A stretch of DNA of 62,658 bases from an uncultured Eggerthellaceae bacterium (lineage in GTDB: Bacteria; Actinomycetota; Coriobacteriia; Coriobacteriales; Eggerthellaceae): assembly GCA_934630485.1 (NCBI GenBank), contig CAKTWD010000001.1, forward strand, positions 1 through 62,658. Reading direction: 5' to 3'. A program made the position numbers and the translations under genes. The notes below the pieces were generated by a model, which was not told where the DNA came from, did no database searches, and worked only from the letters and a program-made list of their open reading frames with translations. Within the stretch, counting starts at the first letter, position 1. Every line of letters begins with the position of its first letter. Below are positions 4,105 to 25,243 of the stretch, one piece after another.

Positions 4105-4153
4105 TATTGCTTCGCGGGCAGCAATCGCTGTCCGCGTTTTTATGGAGGTATAA

Positions 4154-9150: not shown

Positions 9151-10593
9151 TTACCTTTTAAGGTCGTAGTACTGTGACGGATCCTTGGGATTGGATCCGT
9201 GCCATTCGAGGAGACCCTTTTCCACCAGCTCCTTGAGCGTGGGCCTGGAGACCTTCACGCTGCGTCCAAGGTGATCCGACAGCTCACCCACGGTGATTCG
9301 TCCTCTGGCGTACACGTATTGCATGGCCGCAAGCTCATACTCGTTGAGCGACTCGAAGACCGCCTGCCCTATGCTGCTCGAAAGGGCATCCTGGCGTCTC
9401 AGCATGCGCGACGTGATGCTGTTCTCGAGAGTCAACTGCACTGATGCATCGTTGGGTTCCTCAAAGATGGGGTCGTTCAGGAAATAGTTTGCCATTTCGT
9501 CGTAGATGCGCTGAACACCTTCGTTGAGCTCACGCACCCAACCGAATTCCGTCAACGTCCGTGCGATTACGGGGTTGCGAGCCCATCGAGTGTTTCGCAT
9601 GTTCTCCAGCGTCACTACGTTGGGCAGTTTGCCTGGGCTCGTGATCTCCATGCGGTCGTCGTACATCATCACGCGGATATGGTCGCCACTGTGGGCGTAG
9701 TTGCGGTGCGTCACGGCGTTTACCAGGCCCTCGAACCAGGCGAACTCTGGGTATTCAGGAACGATCTTGAACTTGCCGTCGTCCCCCAGATACTGGAACT
9801 CGCGCAGCTGCTCGGAGATCATGGCCTTGGCGCCTTCGATGACCTTAGGCAGTGGGCCGTCGAACGTACGTTCCTTCACGATGTTGAGCCTGCGGCCAGT
9901 TTCCATCTTGCCTCCATCGAAGCGGATGACACGCACCCTCGCGCAGGGGATAAACTGGGTGGGGCTCTTGGCGAAGAGAAGGACGCCGGCGTTGGTGAGA
10001 TGCCCGTCCACGAGCATGCTTCGGCTGCGGAGAACCTGCTCGTCCGAGACGTTTGTGCCGAGCTCCTCCTTGTAATGGGCCATGACTTCGGGGTCGATGT
10101 CTTCTATCGTGGAGCGGCCCGCCACTTCATCCTCGAAGCGCCGCTGGTTCTTGTCGTATTCGAGCGCGGTGATCTGGTCGTGATCCAGCTCGACGCTCTT
10201 GTCTCCCTGACGAAGGAAAACAGCCCCATCGCTGCGCCTCGCGATGACGTGGTCGGTCGATGCGCTGATGTCCAGGACGAGAATGAGGTCGTTTTCCCCA
10301 TGGGAGTTTACGACGGGAATCTCGGCGAGCCTCACCATGGGTACAGGCTCGCAGCAGACGAGAGGTGCCTGCTTGAAAGCTTCGATGTCATGAGCCCCGT
10401 TGCGCTTGAACCCGGTAATCTCGCCGCCATCCTCAATGCCGATGACCAGCTTTCCTCCCGAGGCGTTCGCAAAGGCGCAGATATGCCGAGAAATCTCCTT
10501 CGCGTCTTTGCGGGCGCTCTTGCGGTCGAAGTATTGGTTCTCCTTCGCGGTGGAGAAAATGTCGGGGTCGCTCTTGCCGATTGGATGCTGCAT
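9151..10593 (-). CDS. AlbA_2 (Schlafen-like DNA-binding) / HATPase_c_4 / C-terminal winged-HTH protein (often mis-annotated as RecG-like)
   Basis: N-terminal ENQYFDRKSARKDAKEISRHICAFANASGGKLVIGIEDGGEITGF. Central FEGLVNAVTHRNYAHSGDHIRVMMYDDRMEITSPGKLP. C-terminal wHTH-like ITVGELSDHLGRSVKVSRPTLKELVEKGLLE. Confidence 0.8.
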   Translation of the reverse strand: MQHPIGKSDPDIFSTAKENQYFDRKSARKDAKEISRHICAFANASGGKLVIGIEDGGEITGFKRNGAHDIEAFKQAPLVCCEPVPMVRLAEIPVVNSHGENDLILVLDISASTDHVIARRSDGAVFLRQGDKSVELDHDQITALEYDKNQRRFEDEVAGRSTIEDIDPEVMAHYKEELGTNVSDEQVLRSRSMLVDGHLTNAGVLLFAKSPTQFIPCARVRVIRFDGGKMETGRRLNIVKERTFDGPLPKVIEGAKAMISEQLREFQYLGDDGKFKIVPEYPEFAWFEGLVNAVTHRNYAHSGDHIRVMMYDDRMEITSPGKLPNVVTLENMRNTRWARNPVIARTLTEFGWVRELNEGVQRIYDEMANYFLNDPIFEEPNDASVQLTLENSITSRMLRRQDALSSSIGQAVFESLNEYELAAMQYVYARGRITVGELSDHLGRSVKVSRPTLKELVEKGLLEWHGSNPKDPSQYYDLKR

Positions 10594-11552: not shown

Positions 11553-12824
11553 CTACACGAGATCTTGCAGTAGGAATTTCCATGCGGGTTTAACCTCGAT
11601 GCGTGTATCGCCCTCTATGATTTCCCCTTCTTCCTCTTTTGTCGCGATAAGCAATCGACGAATAGATTCGTCGATACGGGCTAGTTTTACTAAGTTGCCT
11701 ATCTCCCTGGGCTTGGCGCTTTCGGAAAGCGAATAGGCCACCTGCACTGCAAGGCCTTGTTCGGGCACATAAAAATCTACGTCAATGCCGTTTTTTGGCG
11801 ATTTCAGGTAATGAAGCCCCTCGCCAAAGGCATCATGCATTGCTACGGCCACCTCGTTTTCGAGCAAGGCTGGCTCCCTTCCGATCAGGAAGAGATTGAG
11901 CAATCCGTTGTCGCTGAAATAGCGCTTCGGATTTCCCTCGCGCTCTACAAACTTTGCAACGGCGTTTTTTACTTCAAACAGCAGGTAAGCCTCGCGAGCC
12001 ATGGTAAGGTAGTCTAACAGCGTGCCCTTGCTGACGTTGTAGCCCAATCCGCGCAACATGCCATGCAGCGCCGTGGCGGAGGTTTCGTTGCAGACGGTTT
12101 CGGCAATTTTCTTCATGAGCACGCGCAAAGCATCGGGGTTTCGCACGCCATTGCACGCCACCATGTCTCCGAACAAGACCTCTTGGTACACGCTTTCCGT
12201 ATATTCGCGAGCAGAGATATAGCGAAGCGATTCGGGAAAGCCGCCATTTTGATAAAACGTATCGAATGCGCTTGCAATGGCTCCTTTGGCCTTTGTCGCG
12301 TATAGCGCCTCGGCATCATGGGGCACACCGACAGCGTCGAGATACTCGTCAAAACGGTAAGGGGTTACATGCTTGACGAAATAGCGCCCACCAAGAGTGG
12401 TAGCTATCTGGCTGCTAAGCATGTTTGCATTGCTGCCGGTTATCCACACGCGTTCGCCAGCGTCGGCCAAGCGTCGCGCAAACTTTTCCCAGCCATCTAC
12501 GTTCTGTATTTCATCAAAGAAGAAGAAGCCCGAATGTCTGCTGAGCTCGCCTTGCGCTGACAGGATGTCATTGAAATCGTCAACGCGGAATTCTGCCAGG
12601 CGCTCGTCCTCAAAATTGATGTAGATGATCCGGTTCCATTCCACGCCCGATTCCACCAGGTCTCGAGCTATTTTGTAGAGCAGGGTGGACTTGCCGGCGC
12701 GGCGCAGACCGGTGATTACGTAGTTAGCCTGAGGGTCGAGCGAGTAGCGACGAGGCACGATGCGCGCATTGCGAATGATTTCATGTTGATCGAAGATGAC
12801 GCTTTTCAGCACTTCATGATTCAT
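11553..12824 (-). CDS. AAA_14 / DUF4143 family ATPase
   Basis: Walker A ITGLRRAGKSTLL and Walker B-like FFFFDEIQNV, with a C-terminal DUF4143-like region. ATG 12824 (MNHEVLKS...) puts Walker A about 40 aa from the start, as is usual. The longer ORF-track form (to 12998) would translate through two palindromes. Confidence 0.85.
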   Translation of the reverse strand: MNHEVLKSVIFDQHEIIRNARIVPRRYSLDPQANYVITGLRRAGKSTLLYKIARDLVESGVEWNRIIYINFEDERLAEFRVDDFNDILSAQGELSRHSGFFFFDEIQNVDGWEKFARRLADAGERVWITGSNANMLSSQIATTLGGRYFVKHVTPYRFDEYLDAVGVPHDAEALYATKAKGAIASAFDTFYQNGGFPESLRYISAREYTESVYQEVLFGDMVACNGVRNPDALRVLMKKIAETVCNETSATALHGMLRGLGYNVSKGTLLDYLTMAREAYLLFEVKNAVAKFVEREGNPKRYFSDNGLLNLFLIGREPALLENEVAVAMHDAFGEGLHYLKSPKNGIDVDFYVPEQGLAVQVAYSLSESAKPREIGNLVKLARIDESIRRLLIATKEEEGEIIEGDTRIEVKPAWKFLLQDLV

Positions 12825-12832
12825 GGGAATAC

Positions 12833-12860
12833 CAATCTGTTCGATGCGCTGAACAGATTG
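12833..12860. promoter_or_regulatory. Palindrome 1: CAATCTGTTC-N8-GAACAGATTG (candidate operator)
   Basis: Perfect 10-bp arms, 9 bp upstream of the ATPase ATG (12824). Confidence 0.5.
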
Positions 12861-12900
12861 TATGGCTTTCCGTACAGTATATCGAACGGAATAATAGCAA

Positions 12901-12924
12901 ATCTGTTCAATATACTGAACAGAT
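12901..12924. promoter_or_regulatory. Palindrome 2: ATCTGTTC-N8-GAACAGAT (candidate operator)
   Basis: Perfect 8-bp arms with the same core as palindrome 1. The two centres are 66 bp apart. Confidence 0.5.
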
Positions 12925-13072
12925 GGCGTGATTTGGAAGGAAGATCGCTTATCGTCCGCGTGTTGTTGGTGCTGAGCTGGCCTAGTTTGCGTAGTCAACC
13001 GCGTTGCCAGATCCCATGCATAACGAACAACTGAAACTCGCGCATCTTTTGGCCCGATTCATTTGGTTAGCG

Positions 13073-14884
13073 CTACAAGCTCTCGTAGTAGCCACGTATT
13101 TTTCTAGCCATAAGGATACGGCGCTGAGCAAGGAAGTCCTCGTAATCGGCCGCACCCATATCGAATATTCCTTCCGGAATGCAATTCGACTCAAGGTTGG
13201 TCAAGAGACCTGCTTTATCAGAAATGTCGCCGAAGTAATTTTTTCCTGCTGCGATGGCTTCTCTCGCTTGTGTGAAGTACTCGCCAGGACGCATTTCGCC
13301 AATCGCTATGTTGATGCGCTTTTCAAGGTAGGTATAGTTCGCGATTTGGTTATAGAGGCGCTGCGGCGCGTCGATCGTCTTCCTCAGATACGCCTTCGGA
13401 AAGATATGGTGGATATCGCCAACGTTGCCGATGACGTCGGCCACCTTGAACCCGTTTGTGAACAGGGTGTTGTCAGCCGAACGAACTTGTGACGCTATGT
13501 AGACCATCCATGCTCCAGTTCGCACTGAAGTCGTAACGAGATTCTGCGGCAAGGTGACTTTCCAGAAATTGTCGGAAAGCTGCGATGCGGCGATCTCGTT
13601 GTAGAACGGGATGAATCCCTGTTCGGATATTCGACCCATGTCGCGGTCCATGACGGATTCCGACGAGCCGGAATAGCGCCCGGTGAGGATGGACATCACG
13701 TACCAGCGCTGCACCCAGCGCTTAAGATCGGTCGAAGGCACGGAGGCATCTTCTCGTAGGGTGAGATACAGATTGTAGGCAAAATTGACAGCGCCCTTGG
13801 ATCCGATGATCGATGAAGATACGAACCCTGCCGAGCGAAGAGCGGCGGTAAAGTCCTGGAAATTGCTTTTACGCATGAACTTAACCACGCCGTCATGCAG
13901 CTTGGTGAAAGACTCGTCTGCTATCTCGCCTTTGAAGTCACGGGCCTCAAAATCGCGGCCAGAAAGAAGAGACACCAGGTCGGCGAGCTTGCCGCGGCCG
14001 AACATGTGCATGAACGCGACGCGCAGGACGTCATTATAGTCAGGGTCGTAAATGTCGTCCTTGTCGTCCTTGAGCCATTCGCACTTATCTGCGAACTCGG
14101 ATTCCATGAACTCGGCGTCGTTTTGGCTGATAATGGCCCAGAATTCGGGCTTGACGGCCAAATGGCAGTAATAGTCGATGGCCTTGCGCAGCATGTTGCC
14201 GCCGTGAACCTCATCGGCAGCGATTTTAGACATTGCGAAGTCGGCTTGGGATAAAACGGCGCCCTTGGAATTGATGCGGATGAAGATGTCCGTAACCTCG
14301 TCTATGCTGCATTCAGCAGCTACGACGATGCAGCCGAGCTGACGCGTTGCTATCGCCTTAAGATCGGTGATTCTTAAGTTCACGACCTTGGGATCGCAGC
14401 CGGGGTTCGCCTCTATGTATTCGTTGACGAAAGTCCAGGAGTCGAAATCAGGGGCGAAGAACTCTGCAATGTCCGATATCCATCGCGGATCTTTATCAAT
14501 CACCGGCGTAAGCACGGCAAAAGGAGTGTCCTCGCCTTCGTAAAGAGGGTTGAAGGCGATCTTTACGCGCTTCGACTCGTAATCTTCATTAAGCACGGCT
14601 TTGCCCGCGAGCGCGGCGGTGAGAGCCGTCACGCGCTGCTGACCGTCGATAAGCACCGTCTTGCCCTCTGCAACGCCGCCGCCCTTGATCTTCACGTCGG
14701 GGTTCTTCCATGTGATCAGATAGCCGGTCGGGTATCCATGGTAAAGAGAGTCGACCAAATCGCGAACTTTGGTGCTGTCCCACACGAAGGGTCGCTGGAT
14801 TTCGGGAATTGCGATGTCGCCGGACTCTATAAGCCCAAGGATGCTTTGCACTGAGTAAGTGGTGACGCTGTAGCAATCTTTCAT
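13073..14884 (-). CDS. DUF262 (ParB-like NTPase) + DUF1524 (His-Me finger nuclease) protein, GmrSD/BrxU/SspE-like
   Basis: N-terminal IPEIQRPFVWDSTKVRDLVDSLYHGYPTGYL and VLIDGQQRVTAL (DGQQR motif). C-terminal GDIHHIFPKAYL...NQIANYTYLEKRINIAIG. Confidence 0.88.
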   Translation of the reverse strand: MKDCYSVTTYSVQSILGLIESGDIAIPEIQRPFVWDSTKVRDLVDSLYHGYPTGYLITWKNPDVKIKGGGVAEGKTVLIDGQQRVTALTAALAGKAVLNEDYESKRVKIAFNPLYEGEDTPFAVLTPVIDKDPRWISDIAEFFAPDFDSWTFVNEYIEANPGCDPKVVNLRITDLKAIATRQLGCIVVAAECSIDEVTDIFIRINSKGAVLSQADFAMSKIAADEVHGGNMLRKAIDYYCHLAVKPEFWAIISQNDAEFMESEFADKCEWLKDDKDDIYDPDYNDVLRVAFMHMFGRGKLADLVSLLSGRDFEARDFKGEIADESFTKLHDGVVKFMRKSNFQDFTAALRSAGFVSSSIIGSKGAVNFAYNLYLTLREDASVPSTDLKRWVQRWYVMSILTGRYSGSSESVMDRDMGRISEQGFIPFYNEIAASQLSDNFWKVTLPQNLVTTSVRTGAWMVYIASQVRSADNTLFTNGFKVADVIGNVGDIHHIFPKAYLRKTIDAPQRLYNQIANYTYLEKRINIAIGEMRPGEYFTQAREAIAAGKNYFGDISDKAGLLTNLESNCIPEGIFDMGAADYEDFLAQRRILMARKIRGYYESL

Positions 14885-17295: not shown

Positions 17296-17547
17296 ATGGC
17301 TGCTGATACCGTTGCGGTGAACTTCTCGATGAGCCGCGAATTGTATAACGAATACAAACAACTCGTGTTGGACGGCGGAGAGAACGTGAAGGGAAATCTC
17401 GTTCGCTACATGGAGAGCGTCGTGCATTACAAAATGACGAACCCCTCGACAATCGCCGCTATCGAGGAAGTAGAGCGTTTGAAGAAAGACCCGAACAGGA
17501 AAACGTACGGAAGCTTCGCGGAAGCCATGGAGGATTTAGGCGAATGA
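17296..17547 (+). CDS. RelB/DinJ family antitoxin
   Basis: 83 aa. N-terminal ribbon-helix-helix-like VAVNFSMSRELYNEYKQLV. RBS AAGGAGG. The stop overlaps the toxin start (ATGA). Confidence 0.85.
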   Translation: MAADTVAVNFSMSRELYNEYKQLVLDGGENVKGNLVRYMESVVHYKMTNPSTIAAIEEVERLKKDPNRKTYGSFAEAMEDLGE

Positions 17548-17822
17548 GCGAATACAGGATCGTCCTCACCTCCCATTTTAAGAAGGACATCAAGGTGGCG
17601 AAACGCCGTGGCTACGATATGAGGCTCATAGAAAAAGTCGTCGACACGCTTGCCGCCGGCGAAGAACTAGAGGCGAAGTACAGAGACCACAAGCTTGCCG
17701 GCAATTACGCCGAATGCAGGGAATGCCACATCACCCCCGACTGGCTTCTGATTTACGAGCACTGCGAAGATGAATTGATTCTTTATTTGACGAGAACCGG
17801 CACGCACAGCGACGTATTCTGA
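17544..17822 (+). CDS. YafQ/RelE family type II toxin (mRNA interferase)
   Basis: 92 aa. Motifs HFKKDIKVAKRRGYDM, YRDHKLAGNYAECRECHITPDWLLIY, LYLTRTGTHSDVF. Confidence 0.88.
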   Translation: MSEYRIVLTSHFKKDIKVAKRRGYDMRLIEKVVDTLAAGEELEAKYRDHKLAGNYAECRECHITPDWLLIYEHCEDELILYLTRTGTHSDVF

Positions 17823-18031: not shown

Positions 18032-19753
18032 CTATCGTCCTCCGCGGGCGATATGGCACGGGTACCACTTCTGGAACCATGCGGTGAAGACGCCCATCAG
18101 CGCGGGAAGTACCGAGTTGATGGCGCCAACCAAGCTGGCCGCATCCGTCTGCATGATGAAGTACGTCCAAATGGGCGCGACCAGATAAAGCACGCCCCAC
18201 GCCACGGTCAGGATGCGGTTCGTCTTCATGAAGATGGGGTTGCGCAGCGCTTCGTCCCCGTTGTAGCTGTTCTTGGAGTAATGCGCGGTCAGCGGAACCT
18301 TTAGGAAACAGGAGACGCTCCACATCAGCCCGAACAGGGCATACGACGCCGGAATCATTAGCACGGGGGAGGCCCCTGCCAGCAACGCGATGGAGCAGGC
18401 GCCAACAGCAAGCGCCGAAATCTTGTCGTACGCGGTTGCTTTGGTCCGATGCATCAGGACAGGCGGCAGCACGCACGCCGCCACGCTGATCAGGCTGCCC
18501 CAGAAGCTGTTGATTGATGCGGCTATCCAGAAGACGATCCAGGGAATCAAAAGCAGTAGCATATTGGTTTTCGGCTCGCCCGCGTTTTTGCCCGCGCTAA
18601 CTCCGCGGTTATGACCGTCGATGCCGCCCGCATCCGAGCCCATGTCGGCGTTCGCGGCTCCGAAATATTCGTCCCAGTGCATCATCAGGTCGAAGTCGCC
18701 TTCAACCGAGTACAGGTGCTGCATAAGCGCCTCGTCGCCGCGGATCTTGCCAGCGGCAATGGACTGCCAAACATCAAATGGCGTGTTGATCCGTGTGGTG
18801 TAATCCGTGGCGAAGCCCTCGGCGGGCGCTTCTTCAATGCGGCTTCCGTTCGCCCCAAGGACAACGCGGTAGGTCTTGTCGATGTCGGTGTAGTGCATGT
18901 CCAGCGCAAGGTCGTGCCCCGGCCAAGCCTGTTTGCGGTACAGGGCGGCCATCTGGCGGGTGAACACCAGGCTGGGGTCCTCTTTTTCGCCTGACTCGTT
19001 AACGCCCCAGCTGGCGTCGGCCATCGCTTCGAAGACGTCGCGCGGGAACAGGTTCTGGTCAAGCTTGCTGCGGGTTTCGCGTGAGATACCGTCAGCTGCG
19101 CGGCCGTTAGTTGTGGAGCCTGTGCTGACTACGTAACTGGTCGCGAACTCCTCGCCGGCTTTCTTCACCCAAGAGAGGTACTCGTCGGTGCGCGCGGCCA
19201 GCTCTTTCACGCGGAAAAGCTCACCTTGCCCGCAAAAGATCGTGGTGTAGCCGCCTTTGCCGCAAAGGCGGTCGAACAGGTCGGTCACGCCGCTGTAATT
19301 GCCCTTGGCAGTGTAGAAACCGCAGGTCGAAACTACCACCGTGCGTTTGCCGCCCATGTCGTAGCGCGACGGGTGCCCGCCGCTTTCCGTCTCGACGCTC
19401 ATGAAGGGAAGCGACATGGGGAGCTGGCGGTCGATCAGGTTCTTCAGCGGGCCGGGCAGCCCGAAGTAGTACAAGGGGAAGCTCCAGACAATTACGTCAG
19501 CCCACAGTATCTTTTCGATAACCAACTGCATGTCGTCATGGAGACAGCATGTTCCTGGAGTTTTGCTCCAGCACGAGAAACAGCCCAGACAGGATTTGAT
19601 GTTGAGCGTGCCGACGTTTAGGGTTTCAACTACGGGTGCCTGCCCATGGGCACTCTCTTCTTGCGCGGTGATTCCCTGCATGAAAGCGCTGGTCAAGCGC
19701 CAGGTATTGCTTCGTTCGCCCTTGGGGCTGCCGTTGATTGCCAGGATGTTCAT
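18032..19753 (-). CDS. Flavodoxin-like FMN reductase + SCP2-like domain + C-terminal multi-TM domain fusion protein
   Basis: N-terminal MNILAINGSPKGERSNT...CLGCFSCW...VWSFPLYYFGLPGPLKNLIDR. Middle YRVVLGANGSRIEE...PFDVWQSIAAGKIRGDEALMQHLYSVEGDFDLMMHW (SCP2-like). The C-terminal ~190 aa holds about 5 hydrophobic helices. ATG 19753 is preferred over 19780. Confidence 0.8.
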   Translation of the reverse strand: MNILAINGSPKGERSNTWRLTSAFMQGITAQEESAHGQAPVVETLNVGTLNIKSCLGCFSCWSKTPGTCCLHDDMQLVIEKILWADVIVWSFPLYYFGLPGPLKNLIDRQLPMSLPFMSVETESGGHPSRYDMGGKRTVVVSTCGFYTAKGNYSGVTDLFDRLCGKGGYTTIFCGQGELFRVKELAARTDEYLSWVKKAGEEFATSYVVSTGSTTNGRAADGISRETRSKLDQNLFPRDVFEAMADASWGVNESGEKEDPSLVFTRQMAALYRKQAWPGHDLALDMHYTDIDKTYRVVLGANGSRIEEAPAEGFATDYTTRINTPFDVWQSIAAGKIRGDEALMQHLYSVEGDFDLMMHWDEYFGAANADMGSDAGGIDGHNRGVSAGKNAGEPKTNMLLLLIPWIVFWIAASINSFWGSLISVAACVLPPVLMHRTKATAYDKISALAVGACSIALLAGASPVLMIPASYALFGLMWSVSCFLKVPLTAHYSKNSYNGDEALRNPIFMKTNRILTVAWGVLYLVAPIWTYFIMQTDAASLVGAINSVLPALMGVFTAWFQKWYPCHIARGGR

Positions 19754-19918
19754 TGGGCGCTCCTTAGTTTGGTGGCGCATTGCTCGGCTCAGTCGCTTTG
19801 TTGGGTGCGCGATGCCTCACTTACGAGCTGAATGATATATCACTGGCGGAATAGAGGAAGAGCAAGGGGAGTCAATGTTTGGTAAAGGTTGGGATGGTGG
19901 AAGAAAATGGCGAAGACG

Positions 19919-20123: not shown

Positions 20124-20545
20124 TACTAAGCGTATAATGATGCTCGGTAAGGCGACTTCTCGGCAACCGTTGAAGAAGTGATCGTAAAGAAGCCACTCGA
20201 TTGCGCCTGGGAGGAGCGGGTTCAACAGCTTAAGGTTCTCCTGAACGCCCGGGTCTGAGCTCTTTCGCTACGACGTAGTCGCTCTGGTGGTAGGTAGCTT
20301 GATTCCGATCAAGACCTTCCAATAATCTATGGGTGGTATCTCGAAAAATGCTTATGGGAGCGCACCTGCTAAACTCATTGTGGCGTTTGCCTGAATAGGG
20401 CGCGTTTCGCAGGATGCGCACCCATCGCCCTATCACCCAACAGACTCAGCAGCTTTGCGGCTTTTCTTAAGGAGCGAAGCTGCTGGCGCTTTGGCGGCAC
20501 TATGATTTGCAGCAGAAATCACGAGTGATCGATCGGGGCATCTGC

Positions 20546-20974
20546 ATGCAAAACGAGGTGCGCGTTTCGGCTGGCGGGAAAGCTGCCGCCAAGAAAAAGA
20601 CCGGCGGGTTCCTTCGCCAAGCCATGACATACTACGGCGTTTCCGCCGCGCAAACCTTCGTCGAGTTCGGCGTGTTCGCCGTCATGCAGCTTCTTGGGCT
20701 GGCAACGGGCACGGCCAACGGCATTGCCGTGGCATGCTCGGGATCGTTCAACTTCTTAATGAACCGCAACATCACTTTCAAGGCCTCAAGCAACTTCTGG
20801 CGCAGCGTCGTTCTGTTCATTCTTCTGTATCTATGGAACTTCCTGTTCGGCACGTGGTTCATTTCCGCAACGGCATCTGCCTTCGGCCTGCCGCAGACGG
20901 TGGGCAAGTTCATCACCATGGCAATGCAGGGCGTCTGGGGTTTCTGCCTGTGCAAATGGGTTATCTTCAAATAG
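20546..20974 (+). CDS. GtrA family membrane protein
   Basis: Motifs YYGVSAAQTFVEFGVFAVM and NFLMNRNITFKAS, with 4 TM helices. The start is uncertain (20507, 20546 or 20624). Confidence 0.8.
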   Translation: MQNEVRVSAGGKAAAKKKTGGFLRQAMTYYGVSAAQTFVEFGVFAVMQLLGLATGTANGIAVACSGSFNFLMNRNITFKASSNFWRSVVLFILLYLWNFLFGTWFISATASAFGLPQTVGKFITMAMQGVWGFCLCKWVIFK

Positions 20975-21031
20975 GTTGAAAGACTCGACTTTAATTTGCG
21001 CGGCCGCGCTTGGAGCATTACGGGGGCAGCG

Positions 21032-22753
21032 ATGCATGATCTGAATAAAGTTCTGTTTTACAAAACGTCGTTCGACGTCCAGCTGGTTGCGGGCGACGAT
21101 TTGCTGTGGCCGATCATCTTCGAGATCAAAAACTGGATGACATCCAAATGGAACGGCCCCGCGTGCTACGGCGACGCCTCCTGTGACGGCCCGCAGTACG
21201 ACGGCGCTCCTAGTGATGCCACGCCCGTGCTTGCCACCGACAACCAGGAATGGTCGGCACTTAAGCGAAAAGGCCAGATCAGATCGACGGATGATGACGC
21301 CTCGGTGGTTATCGAATCAGCCACGTTCTACGATAGCCTTTTCGGCAACAAATGGGCCTGCGCCATCTCCGAGACTATAAAGGTTGAGGGCTGCGCCTTT
21401 CGCGAATGGCGTACGGAAATCGGCTTTATCTGGCGCGAGCAAGATCGCGGCACGTTGTCGCTGATTCTTTCCTACAGCGATCAGCCGGGTTTCCTGGGCC
21501 CGCTGCAACCCACTCCTTCCGAAACCATCCCAGGCATTGTTCTTAGGCTGTCGGACAACAATCGCATCCGCTGCTCGGTTTCGGGCAGGAGCAATTTCAT
21601 GGAGCCCACCCGCCTTGAGGTTGGCGACTTCGTGGGTTTCTGGTCGTTCGTCTCCGACAAGAACCGCAACACGCCCGTCGTGTTCGTTAGCCCTGCAGTC
21701 GACGATGGGGCGGCAACGCTTTTGATTGACCCGCAGGCCGTTTCTGCGGCTTTGGGCCCCTCGGCGGTGGTCTTTTTCAGCGAAAGCCCCGCCTTCATGG
21801 ACGAGATGAATGCCTGCCTTCCAAGAGCTGAGCTGCGCTGCACGAACGGCGCGGTTCGCGTGTACGAGCCCAAGAAGAGTCTTGCCGAGCACTGGAAACA
21901 TCGCTTTTTCTCGCCCGCTGCAATTGAAGAGCTGGGCGGCGCCGAGGCTTTGATCCTGCTACTAAGACGGGCGCTGGCTCAGGATGTTCACTTCTACGAA
22001 GACACGGTACGGCTTGATGACGTGCACGATCTTGTTCGCCGCAGCACGTTCGAGAAGCGGCTGCATCAACGTGTCGATGATGCTCAGGACGAAACGGATC
22101 AGGTTCGACTGGAGCTTGACGAGTTCCTTGACGATCACGAGCGAACGCTTAACGAGAGGGATCGCTTGGACGAGGAGAACAAGAAGCTGCGTCAGCAACT
22201 GGATGCGGCGGAGTCGAAAGCGTCAAGCCTTCAGCAGGCGTTTGAGGGTTCGGGCATGGTCGAGGCGCCGGTTGCGGGCTTGCCGCTGTATCCCAAGTCG
22301 CGAAAAGACATCGTGAATATGTTCTTGGAGGCGTATCCGAGCAGGTTCGACCTGACCGAGCGCGCGTGGCGTTCGCTGGACAATTGCGAGAGCAGCCCCG
22401 AGGTTTTGTGGAACGCGCTGTACTATCTGTGCACGCTTTTGCATTCGCTTTGGCACAGCGGGTCGGGCGTCGATTTGGAGCGAAGCTTTAACGATTCCGC
22501 CAGCGGGTTTGAGTACAAGCGCGGCGAAGGGCGCAACTCGCGTGCGGACAAGGCTGTGATGGCGTCTCGCTACGATGTGTACAACGGCCGCGAGATTTTC
22601 GCGGAGCCCCACATCAGCAAGGGAAATAGCCGAGGTAAATCGAAGGAGAACAGCATCAGGATTTATTTAGCCTTGGATGAGCCGTCGGGCATGATCATCC
22701 TTTCCAGCATCGGTGAGCATTTGGACAACCATTCCACGCGCAACTTTCATTAG
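21032..22753 (+). CDS. Orphan 573-aa soluble protein: unknown N-domain + coiled coil + C-terminal domain with a RelE/ParE-like strand motif
   Basis: Long ORF with host-like codon usage. ATG 21032 follows GGGGG. No Walker, TM or nuclease motif was recognised. Coiled coil RLHQRVDDAQDETDQVRLELDEFLDDHERTLNERDRLDEENKKLRQQLDAAESKASSLQQ. C-terminus ...ENSIRIYLALDEPSGMIILSSIGEHLDNH. Confidence 0.75.
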   Translation: MHDLNKVLFYKTSFDVQLVAGDDLLWPIIFEIKNWMTSKWNGPACYGDASCDGPQYDGAPSDATPVLATDNQEWSALKRKGQIRSTDDDASVVIESATFYDSLFGNKWACAISETIKVEGCAFREWRTEIGFIWREQDRGTLSLILSYSDQPGFLGPLQPTPSETIPGIVLRLSDNNRIRCSVSGRSNFMEPTRLEVGDFVGFWSFVSDKNRNTPVVFVSPAVDDGAATLLIDPQAVSAALGPSAVVFFSESPAFMDEMNACLPRAELRCTNGAVRVYEPKKSLAEHWKHRFFSPAAIEELGGAEALILLLRRALAQDVHFYEDTVRLDDVHDLVRRSTFEKRLHQRVDDAQDETDQVRLELDEFLDDHERTLNERDRLDEENKKLRQQLDAAESKASSLQQAFEGSGMVEAPVAGLPLYPKSRKDIVNMFLEAYPSRFDLTERAWRSLDNCESSPEVLWNALYYLCTLLHSLWHSGSGVDLERSFNDSASGFEYKRGEGRNSRADKAVMASRYDVYNGREIFAEPHISKGNSRGKSKENSIRIYLALDEPSGMIILSSIGEHLDNHSTRNFH

Positions 22754-22786: not shown

Positions 22787-23983
22787 CTAACGGTTGCGAC
22801 GCCTTGTTGCGGCAACGCCAGCTGCGGCTGCTGCGGCGGCGGTACCAAGGGCGACTGCCATCGCGCCGTTGTCGCCCGTTGCGGGCAGAGCGGTCTCGGC
22901 GGGCTTAACAACAGGCGTGACCTTAGCGGGTGCGGGGTCTGCCGCAGGTTTTTCTTCTTCAGGCTGCGGGGCGGGGTCGGGCTTGCCTTCCGGCTCGGGT
23001 TTCACTTCCGGATCTGGTTTGACTTCTGGACCCGGCTTGACTTCCGGGTCAGGTTTGACCTCAGGATCGGGCTTAACTTCGGGATCGGTCGTGTCGGTGC
23101 CGATTAGATACACGTTGCTGCCAAAGACACAGCGGAGATAGTACTCGTGTCGCGTCATGAGAATGGTCCCCTCCCCGTTGTTGAAGTTGCTGAAATCGGG
23201 GTCGGCAAATGCGCCAATGTGGGCCGTGTGGAACAAATTCAGGCTGTAGGAAATCAGGGGATCGGCGTCGCCGCCCGTAAAGACCAAGGTCGCCCTTTCG
23301 AGATTGTCGACGGAGGCCAGGCTGATCGAAACGTTTGCTTCTTTGGCGTCTTCGGTTTTGACAAGGGACTCAGTATCGGGATCGATCCTGAAGAGGTGGA
23401 CGCTTTCGTTACGCCAAAGGGTGAAGCCCTCGGGCGCGTTGGGGAAGTCGTACACGAACGCTTCGTCTTGGACTAACGTGAACGCAGGAGGCAGTTCTAG
23501 GTCGTAGAAGTGGTTGACGACGGTGGTGTTGACTCTGATCTCGCCGCCGCCTGGGGTGGTTGCGCCGCGGGCGGCGGGTGCTGCTGCCGGTGCGGATGCG
23601 GTGGCGGATTCGCTTGCGAGTGCGACGGCTGCGGCCGGTTCGGCGGCGTTGAGGGCGGCCGTGGGTGCAGCTTCGCTGGCAACTGCGGGGTCGGAAGGCG
23701 ATTCGACTTTCACCGCGCTAGGTTCGGCGGCGTTAGGCGCCGCAACTGCGGTTTTTGCTGCTTGCTTGGCTGGATCCGCGGTAGTCGCGACGGCAATATC
23801 TTTCCCTGCAGTAGGTTCGGGTGTTTCGCTTGCCAGCGCTACGCCGGGCAGAAGGAGCTGTCCCGCCACAAGGGCGCTTACCCCGAAGGTGGCGATTTTG
23901 GCGCCCGTACGACGCTTCGCGCCGCGGATGAGCGAGCGGGTCCGTTCGTTCTGGCTTTGCGGTGCAACATGCCGTCTGTGCAT
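22787..23983 (-). CDS. LPXTG-anchored cell-wall surface protein with PEVKPD repeats
   Basis: Signal peptide (KIATFGVSALVAGQLLLPGVALA) and Ala/Pro-rich spacer. Globular domain of ~190 aa. (D/G)PEVKP x5 plus EPEGKP. C-terminal LPATG + hydrophobic helix + RRRNR sorting signal. Confidence 0.85.
   Translation of the reverse strand: MHRRHVAPQSQNERTRSLIRGAKRRTGAKIATFGVSALVAGQLLLPGVALASETPEPTAGKDIAVATTADPAKQAAKTAVAAPNAAEPSAVKVESPSDPAVASEAAPTAALNAAEPAAAVALASESATASAPAAAPAARGATTPGGGEIRVNTTVVNHFYDLELPPAFTLVQDEAFVYDFPNAPEGFTLWRNESVHLFRIDPDTESLVKTEDAKEANVSISLASVDNLERATLVFTGGDADPLISYSLNLFHTAHIGAFADPDFSNFNNGEGTILMTRHEYYLRCVFGSNVYLIGTDTTDPEVKPDPEVKPDPEVKPGPEVKPDPEVKPEPEGKPDPAPQPEEEKPAADPAPAKVTPVVKPAETALPATGDNGAMAVALGTAAAAAAAGVAATRRRNR
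22979..23086 (-). repeat. Six tandem 18-nt units encoding (D/G/E)PE(V/G)KP
   Basis: Read directly from the sequence: units begin at 22979, 22997, 23015, 23033, 23051 and 23069. Confidence 0.85.
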
Positions 23984-24294: not shown

Positions 24295-24606
24295 ATGTCG
24301 GTGTTCGAGGAGGTGCTTGAGGAGGAGTTCGGAAGATCCGTTCGCCTTAGTGACCATATGCAAGCTGAGCTTGAGCTGCTGCCCAAGGGAAGTGTCCGTT
24401 CGCGAAAGATAAAAGGTCGCGAGTACTATTATCTGAATTATCGCGAGGGCGATAAAGTGAAGTCTGACTATGTCCCCGCATCTGACATTGATGATGTTCG
24501 TCGGAAAATTGAACGTCGGAAAGAGTTGAAGGCTGCTTTAAAAGAGCAAGAACGCACACGCCAGCAGATCGAGCGAGCTTTGGGGAGGGTCCCCGATGTT
24601 GTCTGA
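24295..24606 (+). CDS. Small protein partner of the GSU2403-type nucleotidyltransferase (putative antitoxin/regulator)
   Basis: 103 aa from ATG 24295 (RBS GGAGG 7 nt upstream). Motif KIKGREYYYLNYREGDKVKSDYV followed by a charged helix RRKIERRKELKAALKEQERTRQQIE. It overlaps the next gene by 11 nt. Confidence 0.7.
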   Translation: MSVFEEVLEEEFGRSVRLSDHMQAELELLPKGSVRSRKIKGREYYYLNYREGDKVKSDYVPASDIDDVRRKIERRKELKAALKEQERTRQQIERALGRVPDVV

Positions 24607-25243
24607 ACAGCAGCATGCGTTTGCCCGCGTTCTTGATCTTATTGAAGAGGCTGGCTGCATGTCTTTTGTTGTTCTGATTGGCTCGTGGGCGGAGTATGTA
24701 TACAAAGAAGCTGGGATTTTGCCCGGCTTTGACCCTAATATCAGGACACTGGATGTCGACTTTCTTATACGTAATTTGAGGCGCCCTGTTCCAGCTGCGA
24801 GTTTGGCGGTGCTTGCAAAAGAGAAAGGCTTCTTTGTTGAGTCGGATCGTCTGAATGGGTCGACGAAGATCCTTGACGCGTCGGGTCTTGAAGTCGAGTT
24901 TCTAATTCGAAAAATGGGCGCTGGCGCGGAGGTCGCGCTTAAAACGAATGTCGGGGTGACTGCGCAAACGCTTCGGCATTTGGAAATTCTCTCGACGAAT
25001 CTTCTTGAGACAATTTGTTTGGGGCATGTGCTTCGGGTTCCTGCGCCTGAGGCATACGTGATTCACAAGATGGTGATAAACGACGAAAGAGGCCCGAAGG
25101 CCGAGAAGGACGCAGTGGCCGTTATGGCCTTAGCTTCTTATCTTGTCGAAGAAAAAGCGATTGCTATATTCGAATCACTTACCAAAAAGGAACAGTTGCG
25201 CGTCAGGGCCTTTATCGCGAAGTACGGCATCGAGAATCAGTAG
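24596..25243 (+). CDS. GSU2403-family nucleotidyltransferase-fold protein (AbiEii/MNT-like putative toxin)
   Basis: NTase signature VVLIGSWAEYVY...TLDVDFLI (hG[GS]...DxD), then EVEFL and APEAYVIHKMV. Confidence 0.82.
   Translation: MLSEQQHAFARVLDLIEEAGCMSFVVLIGSWAEYVYKEAGILPGFDPNIRTLDVDFLIRNLRRPVPAASLAVLAKEKGFFVESDRLNGSTKILDASGLEVEFLIRKMGAGAEVALKTNVGVTAQTLRHLEILSTNLLETICLGHVLRVPAPEAYVIHKMVINDERGPKAEKDAVAVMALASYLVEEKAIAIFESLTKKEQLRVRAFIAKYGIENQ

What the first reader, a model, noticed from the sequence alone, without database searches (positions are those of the whole stretch)
21032..22753. Orphan 573-aa protein (unknown N-domain, coiled coil, RelE/ParE-like C-terminal motif) downstream of GtrA
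This is the largest gene in the window that I cannot place in any family.
- It has no Walker A, TM helix, HNH, PD-(D/E)xK or HEPN Rx4-6H motif that I can see.
- It has three parts. The N-terminal ~330 aa is an aromatic-rich globular region (WPIIFEIKNWMTSKWNG, EWRTEIGFIWREQDRGTLSLILSY, PVVFVSP, AVVFFSE, NGAVRVYEP). Next is a ~65-aa highly charged coiled coil.
- The third part is a ~150-aa C-terminal domain ending FAEPHISKGNSRGKSKENSIRIYLALDEPSGMIILSSIGEHLDNH. That last stretch follows the R-I-x-Y-x-x-D-x(3-5)-I-x-I-x-x-I-G-x-H strand pattern of RelE/ParE-type toxin folds.
- It starts 57 nt after a GtrA-family gene on the same strand, where a glycosyltransferase would normally be expected.
- It lies inside the accessory region, between toxin-antitoxin debris and another TA-like pair.

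A sensor plus coiled-coil plus toxin-like effector layout is what single-gene abortive-infection or defence proteins often look like.
Basis: partly seen in the sequence, partly recalled or inferred. Interest (0 to 1): 0.7.

Follow-up and report, generated by a model that had tools for sequence, protein, structure and literature searches.

The report
Divergent HEC-07 antiphage RNase-like protein
The "orphan" 573-residue gene is a real, conserved gene and a distant gut-Coriobacteriia relative of HEC-07, a recently described single-gene antiphage protein that carries a RelE-like RNA-cutting domain, so it is a new member of a known but mechanistically unstudied defence family.

Summary
The ORF at 21032-22753 (+) is real and under purifying selection (dN/dS about 0.1). 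Its C-terminal domain is the most constrained part.

It is not an orphan. Pfam and NCBIfam have no family for it, but PADLOC's HEC-07 model matches almost end to end (E=4.6e-24). A profile of its clade aligns over 481 columns with the clade of the tested Pseudomonas aeruginosa HEC-07 protein (hhalign probability 99.3%, E=2e-20). A 2024 preprint reports that HEC-07 lowers phage plaquing in E. coli.

The AlphaFold model (pLDDT 85) shows four parts:
- an N-terminal alpha+beta domain;
- a thioredoxin-like domain without CxxC;
- one 78-residue charged helix;
- a C-terminal domain whose best PDB neighbours are nearly all RelE, HigB, YoeB or HP0892 toxins. These matches are statistically weak (best E=0.04, TM 0.5-0.6).

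The C-domain also matches the effector end of Menshen NsnC, which is described as a YafQ-like BECR RNase with an H-R-H triad. H527, R543 and H563 are nearly invariant in 279 relatives.

The GtrA neighbour is lineage-specific and incidental. Genomic contexts are mixed but often defence islands.

Verdict: new member of a known kind. RNase activity and defence in this host remain inferred.

The parts
21032..22753 (+). Whole gene: 573-aa HEC-07-family protein, including the stop codon
   Evidence: ORF and translation. PADLOC HEC-07 PDLC04161 E=4.6e-24, aa 108-568 against profile positions 92-552 of 553. hhalign against the clade of the tested HEC-07: probability 99.3%, E=2e-20, 481 columns. dN/dS 0.09-0.12.
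21022..21026 (+). Shine-Dalgarno-like GGGGG, 5 nt upstream of the ATG
   Evidence: Read directly from the sequence. No sigma-70-like promoter lies in the 57-nt gap after GtrA, so co-transcription with GtrA is possible. This is inferred.
21032..21526 (+). Domain 1 (aa 1-165): alpha+beta domain, order beta-alpha-alpha-beta5; presumed sensor or regulatory domain
   Evidence: AlphaFold model, pLDDT mostly above 90. W35, W74, W108, R124, W126, T128 and E129 are conserved in nearly all of 279 relatives, including the Pseudomonadota HEC-07 clade. Foldseek gives only weak START/Bet v1-like hits (E>=2.6e-3, TM<=0.36). The preprint calls the equivalent HEC-07 domain AdoMetDC-like.
21155..21241 (+). Lineage-specific insert (aa 42-70), predicted disordered
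   Evidence: Present only in the window protein and P0001 in alignment A1. pLDDT is below 50 for aa 46-60.
21527..22012 (+). Domain 2 (aa 166-327): alpha/beta, thioredoxin-like, without a CxxC motif
   Evidence: AlphaFold model. Weak matches to thioredoxin 2 (7ysi: probability 0.80, TM 0.42) and mimivirus thioredoxin-like R548 (probability 0.80, TM 0.47). No CxxC. P167, R212, R276, Y278 and H290 are conserved across all clades. This agrees with the preprint's description.
22013..22246 (+). Single long charged helix (aa 328-405); probable coiled-coil or dimerisation stalk
   Evidence: DSSP helix 328-405, pLDDT 84-90. 46% charged residues. Only coiled-coil families give weak Pfam, NCBIfam or PDB matches here. 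The tested HEC-07 has an equivalent helical segment.
22247..22291 (+). Flexible linker (aa 406-420)
   Evidence: pLDDT is below 50 for aa 407-418.
22292..22750 (+). C-terminal effector domain (aa 421-573): RelE/YafQ-like (BECR) fold with extra helices and an insertion
   Evidence: Stand-alone model: pLDDT 91.7, pTM 0.87. Foldseek top hits are M. tuberculosis RelE1 and RelE2, T. thermophilus RelE, E. coli RelE, HigB2, YoeB and HP0892, with target-normalised TM 0.49-0.62 but E>=0.04. PADLOC NsnC (Menshen) models match 17 of 23 family C-domains (best 1.7e-9; window 1.7e-3). dN/dS 0.01-0.07.
22610..22612 (+). Codon for H527, first member of the putative H-R-H catalytic triad (start of core strand beta2)
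   Evidence: His in 277 of 279 full-length relatives. Aligns with H509 of the tested HEC-07.
22658..22660 (+). Codon for R543, second member of the putative triad (strand beta3, RIY motif)
   Evidence: Arg in 259 of 279 relatives, Ser in 19. Aligns with R523 of the tested HEC-07.
22718..22720 (+). Codon for H563, third member of the putative triad (GxHLDN motif after the last strand)
   Evidence: His in 277 of 279 relatives. Aligns with H543 of the tested HEC-07, the histidine the preprint singles out as the RelE-family catalytic residue.

Best explanation
The gene encodes a divergent member of the HEC-07 family of single-protein antiphage defence systems. It belongs to a Coriobacteriia / gut-Firmicutes clade.

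**Proposed mechanism**
1. The two N-terminal globular domains (an alpha+beta domain and a thioredoxin-like domain without a redox motif) sense or transduce an infection cue.
2. The 78-residue helix holds the protein as a coiled-coil dimer.
3. The C-terminal RelE/YafQ-like (BECR-fold) domain, with its conserved His527-Arg543-His563 triad, is an RNase. Once released from auto-inhibition it cuts RNA (mRNA on the ribosome, or tRNA/rRNA), stops translation and so blocks phage production.
4. No antitoxin or partner gene is needed, so control is in cis.

**Shown here:** the gene is real and constrained; it is homologous to HEC-07 over its full length; the domain layout; a RelE-like fold as the best structural match; conservation of the triad; the lack of any conserved partner gene.

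**Taken from the literature:** a HEC-07 representative lowers phage plaquing in E. coli.

**Inferred:** RNase activity, its target, the trigger, dimerisation, auto-inhibition, and defence activity of this particular orthologue in its own host.
For: **Family membership**
- PADLOC HEC-07 models hit at E=4.6e-24, 1.5e-8 and 1.8e-3. The best covers aa 108-568 against profile positions 92-552 of 553. Other clade members hit the same model at 1e-20 to 1e-35, and the tested protein P0187 at 5e-223.
- The tested HEC-07 (P. aeruginosa NCTC13717, WP_033943166.1) was recovered as P0187 from the preprint's Table S2.
- BLASTP of the window protein against P0187 gives E=1e-7 over the C-terminal 196 aa. H527/R543/Y545/H563 align with H509/R523/Y525/H543.
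- Profile-profile comparison of A1 against A4: probability 99.3%, E=2e-20, 481 aligned columns spanning all domains.

**Function of the family**
- HEC-07 is one of seven of nine candidates that reduced plaquing. Its domains are described as AdoMetDC-like, thioredoxin-like without CxxC, and RelE-family with a conserved H543.

**Structure**
- Full-length model pLDDT 85.2; C-domain model pLDDT 91.7.
- The C-domain's PDB neighbours are overwhelmingly RelE-superfamily toxins, with target-normalised TM up to 0.62.
- Thioredoxin-like hits for domain 2.

**Effector domain**
- 17 of 23 family C-domains hit Menshen NsnC HMMs at their C-terminal end (best 1.2e-10 to 1.7e-9; window 1.7e-3).
- NsnC-C is described as a YafQ-like BECR RNase with an H-R-H triad (PMC12065111).
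- H527 and H563 are His in 277 of 279 relatives; R543 is Arg in 259 of 279.
- The C-domain is the most constrained part of the gene (dN/dS 0.01-0.07).

**Single-gene, accessory character**
- No partner gene recurs next to homologues.
- Eight of nine metagenomic contexts, counting the window itself, hold defence or mobile genes within about 10 kb:
  - McrBC, AbiTii, AbiEii and a type I RM remnant;
  - dndACDE;
  - BrxL, GmrSD and IS21;
  - type III Res, an AAA_15/21 ATPase and a transposase;
  - Gabija plus a SMODS/SLATT pair;
  - a TIR protein and a Schlafen-type protein;
  - MobL, a giant helicase and a group II intron;
  - the window itself, with a HEC-05-like GmrSD_N protein, PDC-S01 and two TA-like pairs.
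Against: - **No activity data for this protein.** Nothing exists for it or for any member of its clade. It shares only about 21% identity with the tested HEC-07, and that only over the C-terminal third in pairwise BLAST.
- **Single preprint.** The defence phenotype of HEC-07 comes from one preprint. No HEC-07 active-site mutant is reported there, and no later paper in the library adds to it.
- **The RelE-like assignment is statistically weak.** No Foldseek hit reaches E<=1e-3. A profile of the C-domain finds nothing in PDB sequences. hhalign against a small YafQ/HP0892 profile is negative. No Pfam RelE/ParE/YafQ hit was found.
- **The N-terminal fold is unresolved.** START-like hits here disagree with the AdoMetDC-like label in the preprint.
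- **Context is not uniformly defensive.**
  - Among 138 neighbour ORFs in 16 species-representative genome loci, most are housekeeping. Only a few are type I RM, HerA, AAA_21 or PDC-S01.
  - One homologue sits alone among core genes.
  - The window gene keeps its place between GtrA and the PdxST operon in three related genomes, and its GC content is genome-like.
- **No hits on plasmids**. The only 'phage' record with a hit looks bacterial.
- **Size.** A 573-aa protein is an unusual shape for a ribosomal A-site RNase of the RelE type.
Confidence: 0.7

Rival explanations
1. It is a self-contained toxin or stress-response module (a fused toxin-antitoxin-like or addiction element) that shuts down translation under some cellular stress or stabilises the local genomic region. 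It has no dedicated antiphage role in this host.
For: - RelE-like fold.
- Intact TA-like pairs lie nearby.
- Synteny is stable across three related genomes, and the gene's GC content is genome-like.
- Many homologues sit in housekeeping surroundings.
Against: - The tested family member did reduce phage plaquing.
- Eight of nine long metagenomic contexts contain defence or mobile genes.
- Two large, conserved N-terminal domains are more than a simple addiction module needs.
Confidence: 0.13
2. The RelE-like domain is not a nuclease. It serves as an RNA- or ribosome-binding module, or the protein acts through its N-terminal domains, for example by binding or modifying a small molecule. Any defence or regulatory effect would then be non-nucleolytic.
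For: - Sequence-level links to catalytic RelE/YafQ families are absent.
- 19 of 279 relatives have Ser in place of R543.
- The N-terminal domains carry their own nearly invariant polar residues: R124, T128, E129, R212, R276, H290.
- Weak START-like (ligand-binding fold) hits.
Against: - The two histidines are conserved in 277 of 279 relatives, at positions matching RelE-family catalytic sites.
- The homologous NsnC domain is interpreted as an active BECR RNase.
- The strongest purifying selection falls on the C-domain.
Confidence: 0.12
3. It works with the upstream GtrA-family membrane protein in cell-surface glycan modification, taking the place of the expected glycosyltransferase.
For: - Same strand, with a 57-nt gap and no promoter-like site between the two genes.
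- The GtrA-gene pair is kept in L001 and L003.
Against: - No TM segment and no glycosyltransferase signature or fold hit.
- GtrA is not next to any of the more distant homologues examined.
- Full-length homology to a defence protein.
Confidence: 0.02

Closest known systems
HEC-07 (Hma-embedded candidate 07; PADLOC-DB models PDLC04158-04161; tested representative WP_033943166.1 of Pseudomonas aeruginosa NCTC13717; Payne et al., bioRxiv 10.1101/2024.01.29.577857)
   Same: - One-gene system of about 550-570 aa.
- Same order of parts: N-domain, thioredoxin-like domain without CxxC, long helix, RelE-like C-domain.
- Shared motifs: RxWxTE, VR(V/T)Y, RH, HxK.G, R(I/L)YF, HLDN.
- H563 corresponds to the highlighted H543.
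   Different: - Only about 20% identity, and only the C-terminal third is found by pairwise BLAST.
- Different phyla: Actinomycetota (Coriobacteriia) and Bacillota rather than Pseudomonadota.
- Not embedded in an Hma system here.
- Has a 29-aa disordered insert in domain 1.
- Carries extra clade-specific invariant motifs (SYGDxPGFLG, C270, RRALAQDV) that the Pseudomonadota clade lacks.
- Untested experimentally.
Menshen NsnC C-terminal effector domain (PB-BECR1; PMC12065111)
   Same: - The C-domain is detectably homologous at HMM level to the C-terminal end of NsnC models.
- Both are YafQ/RelE-like BECR folds with a His-Arg-His set of conserved residues.
   Different: - NsnC is about 300 aa with an inactive-PIN N-domain. 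It works with NsnA (ParB-DUF262) and NsnB (ABC ATPase).
- Here the domain is fused in cis to different N-terminal domains, and no nsnB-like ATPase is adjacent.
- Residue-by-residue equivalence of the triads was not checked, because no NsnC sequence was retrieved.
Type II toxin-antitoxin toxins of the RelE superfamily (RelE, YafQ/HP0892, YoeB, HigB)
   Same: - They are the best structural neighbours of the C-domain.
- The core is strand, two helices and a three-stranded sheet, with basic or His residues on beta2, on beta3 and after beta4.
   Different: - Those toxins are about 90-aa stand-alone proteins with an adjacent antitoxin gene.
- This domain is about 150 aa, with extra helices and an insertion, and sits at the end of a 573-aa protein without an antitoxin.
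- No Pfam or profile-level sequence match.
- The window also carries a genuine YafQ toxin at 17544-17822. It is unrelated in sequence to this domain.
Fused toxin-sensor defence proteins such as CapRel (named from general knowledge; analogy only)
   Same: A single polypeptide in which a translation-targeting toxin domain is presumably held off in cis and released by a phage cue.
   Different: - Unrelated folds: CapRel has a RelA/SpoT-like pyrophosphokinase toxin, whereas this protein has a RelE-like RNase.
- No trigger is known for HEC-07.

Membership tests
HEC-07 (PADLOC / Payne et al. 2024) | Significant, near full-length match to a PADLOC HEC-07 HMM | tested here: met
   PDLC04161 E=4.6e-24, aa 108-568 against profile 92-552 of 553. 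PDLC04160 E=1.5e-8. The first ~100 aa lie outside the best stretch but are aligned by hhalign.
HEC-07 (PADLOC / Payne et al. 2024) | Homology over the whole length to the experimentally tested representative | tested here: met
   hhalign A1 against A4 (the clade of P0187 = WP_033943166.1): probability 99.3%, E=2e-20, 481 columns, positions 22-547 against 42-558. Pairwise BLASTP gives only E=1e-7 over the C-terminal third.
HEC-07 (PADLOC / Payne et al. 2024) | C-terminal RelE-family domain with the conserved histidine (H543 of the tested protein) | tested here: met
   H563 aligns with H543 and is His in 277 of 279 relatives. RelE-superfamily proteins are the top fold neighbours.
HEC-07 (PADLOC / Payne et al. 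2024) | Second domain thioredoxin-like, lacking CxxC | tested here: met
   No CxxC. Thioredoxin hits with probability 0.80 and TM 0.42-0.47, but weak E-values.
HEC-07 (PADLOC / Payne et al. 2024) | N-terminal AdoMetDC-like domain | tested here: inconclusive
   Whole-chain Foldseek returned only weak START/Bet v1-like hits (E>=2.6e-3, TM<=0.36) and no AdoMetDC or spermine-synthase hit.
HEC-07 (PADLOC / Payne et al. 2024) | Single-gene system without a conserved partner | tested here: met
   The flanking genes differ in every context examined.
HEC-07 (PADLOC / Payne et al. 2024) | Embedded in an Hma (helicase-methylase-ATPase) system. This is how the family was discovered; it is not a detection rule. 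| tested here: not met
   No Hma-type genes lie around the window gene. Some relatives sit beside other systems such as Dnd, BREX, Gabija or McrBC.
HEC-07 (PADLOC / Payne et al. 2024) | Reduces phage plaquing | not testable with these tools
   Reported only for the P. aeruginosa representative expressed in E. coli.
RelE/ParE superfamily type II toxins | RelE-type fold | tested here: inconclusive
   The top-ranked PDB neighbours are consistently RelE, HigB, YoeB or HP0892 with target-normalised TM 0.49-0.62. However, the best E is 0.04 and RMSD is 5-9 A.
RelE/ParE superfamily type II toxins | Sequence-profile match to a RelE/ParE/YafQ family | tested here: not met
   No such Pfam hit at E<=10. 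A C-domain profile against PDB sequences returned nothing. hhalign against a YafQ/HP0892 mini-profile gave probability 1%.
RelE/ParE superfamily type II toxins | Small stand-alone toxin with an adjacent cognate antitoxin gene | tested here: not met
   It is the C-terminal domain of a 573-aa protein. Upstream is GtrA; downstream is a convergent LPXTG protein.
Menshen (NsnABC) | NsnC-type C-terminal BECR effector domain (PB-BECR1) with an H-R-H triad | tested here: met
   17 of 23 family C-domains hit NsnC model PDLC03899 (best 1.7e-9) and 15 of 23 hit PDLC03912 (best 1.2e-10). The window C-domain scores E=1.7e-3. H527, R543 and H563 are conserved. Their equivalence to the NsnC triad is inferred, not aligned.
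Menshen (NsnABC) | Three-gene operon nsnA (ParB-DUF262) - nsnB (ABC ATPase/DUF3696) - nsnC (inactive PIN + effector) | tested here: not met
   No ABC ATPase or inPIN is adjacent. The DUF262 protein 6 kb upstream is on the other strand and scores best as HEC-05. This is therefore a shared effector domain, not a Menshen system.
HEPN RNases | All-alpha HEPN fold with a conserved Rx4-6H motif | tested here: not met
   Three literal Rx4-6H strings exist. However, H320 and H332 are not among the conserved columns, and R520...H527 lies in a beta-rich domain. No HEPN hit in Pfam, PADLOC or Foldseek.

The most novel reading that the evidence does not exclude
HEC-07 proteins and the three-gene Menshen system may share one mobile H-R-H BECR RNase effector module. 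In HEC-07 that module would be controlled in cis by a START-like (ligand-binding-type) domain and a redox-dead thioredoxin-like domain, joined through a dimeric coiled coil.

If so, this human-gut Coriobacteriia clade would be a single-chain immune RNase that senses a small molecule or metabolite. Its logic would be new: neither a TA system nor a nucleotide-signalling system.

The Menshen link was found here. It is not mentioned in either paper.
Probability: 0.2. Interest if true: 0.6.

Novelty: new member of a known kind. Interest (0 to 1): 0.35.

Why it matters
- **Wider reach of the family.** HEC-07 is one of the newest antiphage systems and is known only from a preprint. It has one tested Pseudomonas protein and no mechanism. 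This finding shows the family extends, at about 20% identity but with the whole architecture intact, into abundant human-gut Coriobacteriia and Firmicutes. One 90%-identity cluster alone holds 421 sequences.
- **Testable catalytic residues.** H527, R543 and H563 are a concrete, nearly invariant candidate catalytic triad.
- **A shared effector.** The effector domain is tied to that of Menshen NsnC, so a single RNase assay could inform two defence systems.
- **Annotation.** A 'hypothetical protein' in gut MAGs becomes a probable defence gene. Around it the window holds a small, variable defence island: a HEC-05-like GmrSD protein, PDC-S01, a YafQ TA pair and an NTP_transf_8 pair.

Tried and rejected
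- **Pfam, NCBIfam, PHROGs on the full protein:** only coiled-coil noise.
- **Profile searches against PDB sequences,** full length and C-domain: only coiled-coil proteins, or nothing.
- **hhalign of the C-domain against a YafQ/HP0892 mini-profile** built from PDB alignments and the window's own YafQ: no relationship detected. The four-sequence profile was probably too thin.
- **Whole-chain Foldseek (PDB, BFVD):** no hit at E<=1e-3. The multi-domain query blurred the results.
- **Word-indexed search with the C-domain profile,** meant to pull in NsnC-like or other architectures: it returned only fragments and a 246-aa coiled-coil + C-domain form.
- **Plasmid collection:** no hit.
- **Phage collection:** one 'UNVERIFIED bacteriophage' scaffold whose neighbours are aroQ/aroE-type bacterial genes, so it is not evidence of phage carriage.
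- **Looking for strains that lack the gene, via the exact PdxS protein:** all contigs had the same arrangement, so this was uninformative.
- **Bulk Pfam/PADLOC scan of 138 neighbour ORFs:** the tool reports only the 25 commonest families. Apparent PD-T4-6 hits are PknB-type kinases, so no clean enrichment statistic could be derived.
- **Readings considered and rejected:** a HEPN reading, a GtrA-linked glycosylation reading, and membership of Menshen as a system.
Full report

Yes. An ORF runs from ATG 21032 to the stop at 22751-22753 on the + strand and encodes 573 aa.
- The longer TTG start at 20996 is unlikely. All homologues start with the same MHDLN... sequence, and a GGGGG Shine-Dalgarno-like run lies 5 nt before the ATG.
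- The upstream ORF (20507-20974) is a GtrA-family protein (Pfam E=1.1e-11). The gap is 57 nt, as stated.
- Orthologues in two related genome assemblies (L001, L003; 93-94% identity) give dN/dS of 0.09-0.12. By segment, the value is 0.01-0.07 for the C-terminal domain, against 0.06-0.10 for domain 2, 0.11-0.25 for domain 1 and 0.06-0.31 for the helix. This is a functional gene, not a chance ORF.

The motif statements were checked.
- No Walker A, no CxxC, and no hydrophobic stretch long enough for a TM helix.
- The literal pattern Rx4-6H does occur three times, but not in a conserved all-alpha context.

**2. It is not an orphan.**

Pfam, NCBIfam and PHROGs give only coiled-coil noise over aa 340-405. 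PADLOC's HEC-07 models match:
- PDLC04161, E=4.6e-24, aa 108-568 against profile positions 92-552 of 553;
- PDLC04160, E=1.5e-8;
- PDLC04159, E=1.8e-3.

The family is large.
- A word-indexed search found 42 relatives, most full length at 32-42% identity.
- An exhaustive profile search of 1.84 billion cluster representatives found 582 at E<1e-30 and 2487 at E<1e-10. Nearly all of the listed ones are 540-620 aa and matched end to end.
- Species-representative genomes carrying it are Eggerthellaceae, Coriobacteriaceae, Adlercreutzia, Enterorhabdus, Atopobiaceae, Oscillospiraceae, Ruminococcaceae and Lachnospiraceae. The window itself therefore comes from a gut Coriobacteriia organism.

**3. What HEC-07 is.**

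The only paper in the library that describes it is Payne et al., bioRxiv 10.1101/2024.01.29.577857.
- HEC ('Hma-embedded candidate') systems were picked because they are nested in Hma defence systems.
[quoted passage not shown] Only HEC-01 and HEC-09 failed.
- HEC-07 is a single protein with three described domains: an AdoMetDC-like N-domain, a thioredoxin-like domain without CxxC, and a C-terminal domain like the H. pylori RelE-family toxin, with a conserved histidine H543.
- No HEC-07 mutant is reported.

From Table S2 I took the tested protein (P. aeruginosa NCTC13717, WP_033943166.1; truncated in the table at about 400 aa) and recovered the full 549-aa sequence as P0187.
- Pairwise BLASTP against the window protein is weak: E=1e-7, 21% identity over the last 196 aa. 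It aligns H527/R543/Y545/H563 with H509/R523/Y525/H543, and ...HLDNHST with ...HLDNRAT at the C-termini.
- A profile of the window's clade (A1, 29 sequences) against a profile of the Pseudomonadota clade (A4, 18 sequences) gives hhalign probability 99.3%, E=2e-20. It spans 481 aligned columns covering every domain.
- P0187 scores 5e-223 on the same PADLOC model that the window clade hits at 1e-20 to 1e-35.

Membership of the HEC-07 family is therefore well supported, as a deep, separate clade.

**4. Anatomy.**

The AlphaFold model built on A1 has mean pLDDT 85.2. It shows:
- **Domain 1, aa 1-165.** Order beta-alpha-alpha-beta5, with a disordered 29-aa insert (aa 42-70) found only in this lineage.
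- **Domain 2, aa about 166-327.** An alpha/beta domain.
- **One uninterrupted helix, aa 328-405.**
- **A low-confidence linker, aa 406-420.**
- **The C-domain, aa 421-573.**

Whole-chain Foldseek was uninformative. The best PDB hits were START/Bet v1-like at E>=2.6e-3 and TM<=0.36. Thioredoxin hits had probability 0.8 and TM 0.42-0.47. This is compatible with the thioredoxin-like assignment but leaves the fold of domain 1 open.

I re-modelled the C-domain alone (A2; pLDDT 91.7, pTM 0.87).
- Its PDB neighbours are almost exclusively RelE-superfamily toxins. They are M. tuberculosis RelE1 (E=0.04, probability 0.87, target-normalised TM 0.55) and RelE2, T. thermophilus RelE, E. coli RelE (TM up to 0.62), HigB2, YoeB, HP0892 and archaeal RelE.
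- No hit passes E=1e-3, and the RMSDs are large. The fold call rests on the consistency of the hit list and on TM>0.5 normalised to the small targets.
- The secondary-structure order fits a RelE core with an inserted helical/hairpin segment. That order is strand 439-441, helices 443-451 and 456-475, an insert, strands 527-530, 542-549 and 554-561, then a short helix. This register is my inference.

**5. An independent sequence link for the effector domain.**

PADLOC's Menshen NsnC models match the C-terminal 70-140 residues of the family.
- 17 of 23 C-domains hit PDLC03899 (best 1.7e-9) and 15 of 23 hit PDLC03912 (best 1.2e-10).
- The window's own C-domain scores E=1.7e-3.
- In a MAFFT alignment of 279 full-length relatives from all three searches, H527 and H563 are His in 277, and R543 is Arg in 259.

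The C-domain is thus best described as a YafQ/RelE-like BECR domain of the NsnC type, with a candidate H-R-H active site. Neither paper mentions this connection.

The direct sequence tests against RelE/YafQ were negative: no Pfam hit, no PDB sequence hit, and hhalign probability 1% against a four-sequence YafQ/HP0892 profile.

**6. Context.**

In the window, the gene sits at the edge of a small variable island:
- a Schlafen/AlbA_2-HATPase_c_4 protein, 9151-10593 (-);
- an AAA_14/DUF4143 ATPase matching PADLOC PDC-S01 (E=3e-80), 11553-12998 (-);
- a GmrSD_N-only protein matching HEC-05 (BrxU-like, E=5.6e-31), 13073-14884 (-);
- an intact RelB-like/YafQ pair, 17296-17822;
- a flavodoxin-membrane fusion;
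- GtrA;
- the HEC-07-like gene;
- a convergent LPXTG surface protein;
- a DUF6788/NTP_transf_8 pair, 24295-25243;
- then the core PdxT/PdxS operon.

GC falls to about 52% over 11-15 kb but is genome-like (58-59%) over the gene itself.

Related assemblies keep Flavodoxin-GtrA-gene-LPXTG-PdxTS. They gain or lose the GmrSD protein, the YafQ pair, the NTP_transf_8 pair and even the LPXTG gene.

GtrA is next to none of the relatives at about 40% identity or lower (and the context look-ups below). The GtrA adjacency is therefore a lineage accident.

Contexts of eight more distant relatives on long contigs:

| Relative | Neighbouring genes |
|---|---|
| P0014 | McrBC, AbiTii, AbiEii, a type I RM remnant |
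| P0039 | dndACDE |
| P0020 | BrxL, GmrSD, IS21 |
| P0035 | type III Res, an AAA_15/21 ATPase, a transposase |
| P0013 | Gabija plus a SMODS/SLATT pair and an integrase fragment |
| P0019 | a TIR protein and a Schlafen-type protein |
| P0036 | a MobL relaxase, a 2026-aa helicase, a group II intron |
| P0032 | purely housekeeping genes |

Against a simple 'defence-island gene' picture, a bulk scan of 138 neighbour ORFs in 16 genome loci was dominated by housekeeping families. Only isolated type I RM, HerA, AAA_21 and PDC-S01 hits appeared. This agrees with the preprint's remark that most of its candidates are not enriched next to other systems. No conserved partner gene exists.

**7. Mechanism.**

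The best-supported model is a single-chain abortive or translation-arrest system.
- The N-terminal domains sense an infection cue. Their own invariant residues (W35, W74, W108, R124, W126, T128, E129, R212, R276, Y278, H290) are shared with the Pseudomonadota clade, which argues for a conserved ligand or partner surface.
- The long helix pairs two chains.
- The BECR RNase with the H-R-H triad is unleashed to cut RNA and stop translation.

What is shown: homology, architecture, conservation and constraint. What comes from the literature: the family's plaque-reduction phenotype. What is inferred: nuclease activity, target, trigger, dimerisation and cis auto-inhibition.

Whether a domain tethered to a 420-aa N-terminal body can enter the ribosomal A site like RelE is open. 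BECR enzymes also include ribosome-independent tRNases, so the target is left undecided.

**8. Rivals.**
- A non-defence stress or addiction toxin (about 0.13).
- A non-catalytic RNA/ribosome-binding role, or N-domain-centred chemistry (about 0.12).
- A GtrA-linked envelope function (about 0.02).

The evidence for and against each is given in the structured fields.

**9. Novelty and score.**

This is a new, deeply divergent member (clade) of a known but barely characterised kind. The 'orphan' label and the weight given to GtrA were not.

Two things are new here:
- the extension of HEC-07 to abundant gut Actinomycetota and Bacillota;
- the HMM-level tie between the HEC-07 effector domain and Menshen NsnC, with a shared H-R-H set.

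Interest is moderate (0.35). A defence specialist would not be surprised, but the family's mechanism is an open and now more testable question.

Noticed in passing
window 13073-14884 (-): A 603-aa protein with only the GmrSD_N/DUF262 domain in Pfam (E=4e-26). Its best PADLOC match is HEC-05, the BrxU-like type IV restriction family (E=5.6e-31), with weak NsnA and HEC-06 hits. It lies in a 52% GC stretch. It is present in L003 but missing from L001.
   Followed up: partly
window 11553-12998 (-): An AAA_14 + DUF4143 ATPase that matches the PADLOC candidate system PDC-S01 (E=3.1e-80). Similar AAA_14/DUF4143 genes recur near HEC-07-like genes in other contigs (L024, L035).
   Followed up: partly
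window 9151-10593 (-): A Schlafen AlbA_2 + HATPase_c_4 protein of 480 aa. It matches the N-terminal part of one PADLOC pAgo model (E=5e-46), but there is no Argonaute domain and no neighbouring Argonaute gene. A Schlafen-type protein also neighbours the homologue P0019 (L045).
   Followed up: partly
window 17296-17822 (+): An intact two-gene TA module, not debris: an 83-aa RelB-like ORF overlapping a 92-aa YafQ toxin. The toxin scores Pfam YafQ_toxin E=5e-34 and PDB HP0892 E=1.7e-20, and keeps the GTHSDVF C-terminus. It is absent from the related genomes L001 and L003. GC here drops to 49%.
   Followed up: partly
window 24295-25243 (+): An overlapping DUF6788 (103 aa) / NTP_transf_8 nucleotidyltransferase (215 aa) pair, laid out like a TA module. 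It is present in the window, L001, L002 and L031, but absent from L003 and L032-L034, whose flanks are otherwise collinear. It has no PADLOC hit.
   Followed up: partly
window 18032-19780 (-): An unusual 582-aa fusion. The N-terminal part is a flavodoxin-like FMN reductase (Flavodoxin_2 E=8e-19). The middle has a weak SCP2 sterol-carrier-like match. The C-terminal ~170 aa look like a multi-pass membrane domain.
   Followed up: no
window 22787-23983 (-): A convergent LPXTG-anchored surface protein with a tandem PDPEVK(P) repeat. It diverges quickly (72% identity in L003, against 94% for the HEC-07-like gene next to it) and is missing in L002.
   Followed up: no
P0321 and relatives; L041-L043, 6001-6741: A 246-aa form made only of the coiled coil plus the C-terminal RelE-like domain (36-37% identity to the window C-domain). 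It occurs as 15 clusters, one of them with 598 member sequences, in a fixed housekeeping context, with about 400 nt of non-coding DNA upstream. It is either a widespread truncated remnant or a functional short variant.
   Followed up: partly
L040 (GenBank MT839861.1), 4132-6525: The only 'phage' record with a homologue (25% identity, E=8e-46) is an UNVERIFIED faecal scaffold. Its neighbours look like bacterial aroQ, aroE and polysaccharide deacetylase genes. The homologue loses its reading frame just before the GxHLDN motif and runs on as a 797-aa ORF.
   Followed up: partly
window 21155-21241 (aa 42-70 of the protein): A Cys/Gly/Asp/Pro-rich 29-aa insert (GPACYGDASCDGPQYDGAPSDATPV). It occurs only in this Coriobacteriaceae lineage and is predicted disordered. 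It interrupts the otherwise conserved domain 1 between helix 1 and helix 2.
   Followed up: no
literature / PDB: The preprint labels PDB 4LTT as HP0892. In the PDB sequence table, 4LTT groups with HP0894 (1Z8M), while HP0892 is 2OTR/4NRN. This does not affect the conclusion.
   Followed up: no
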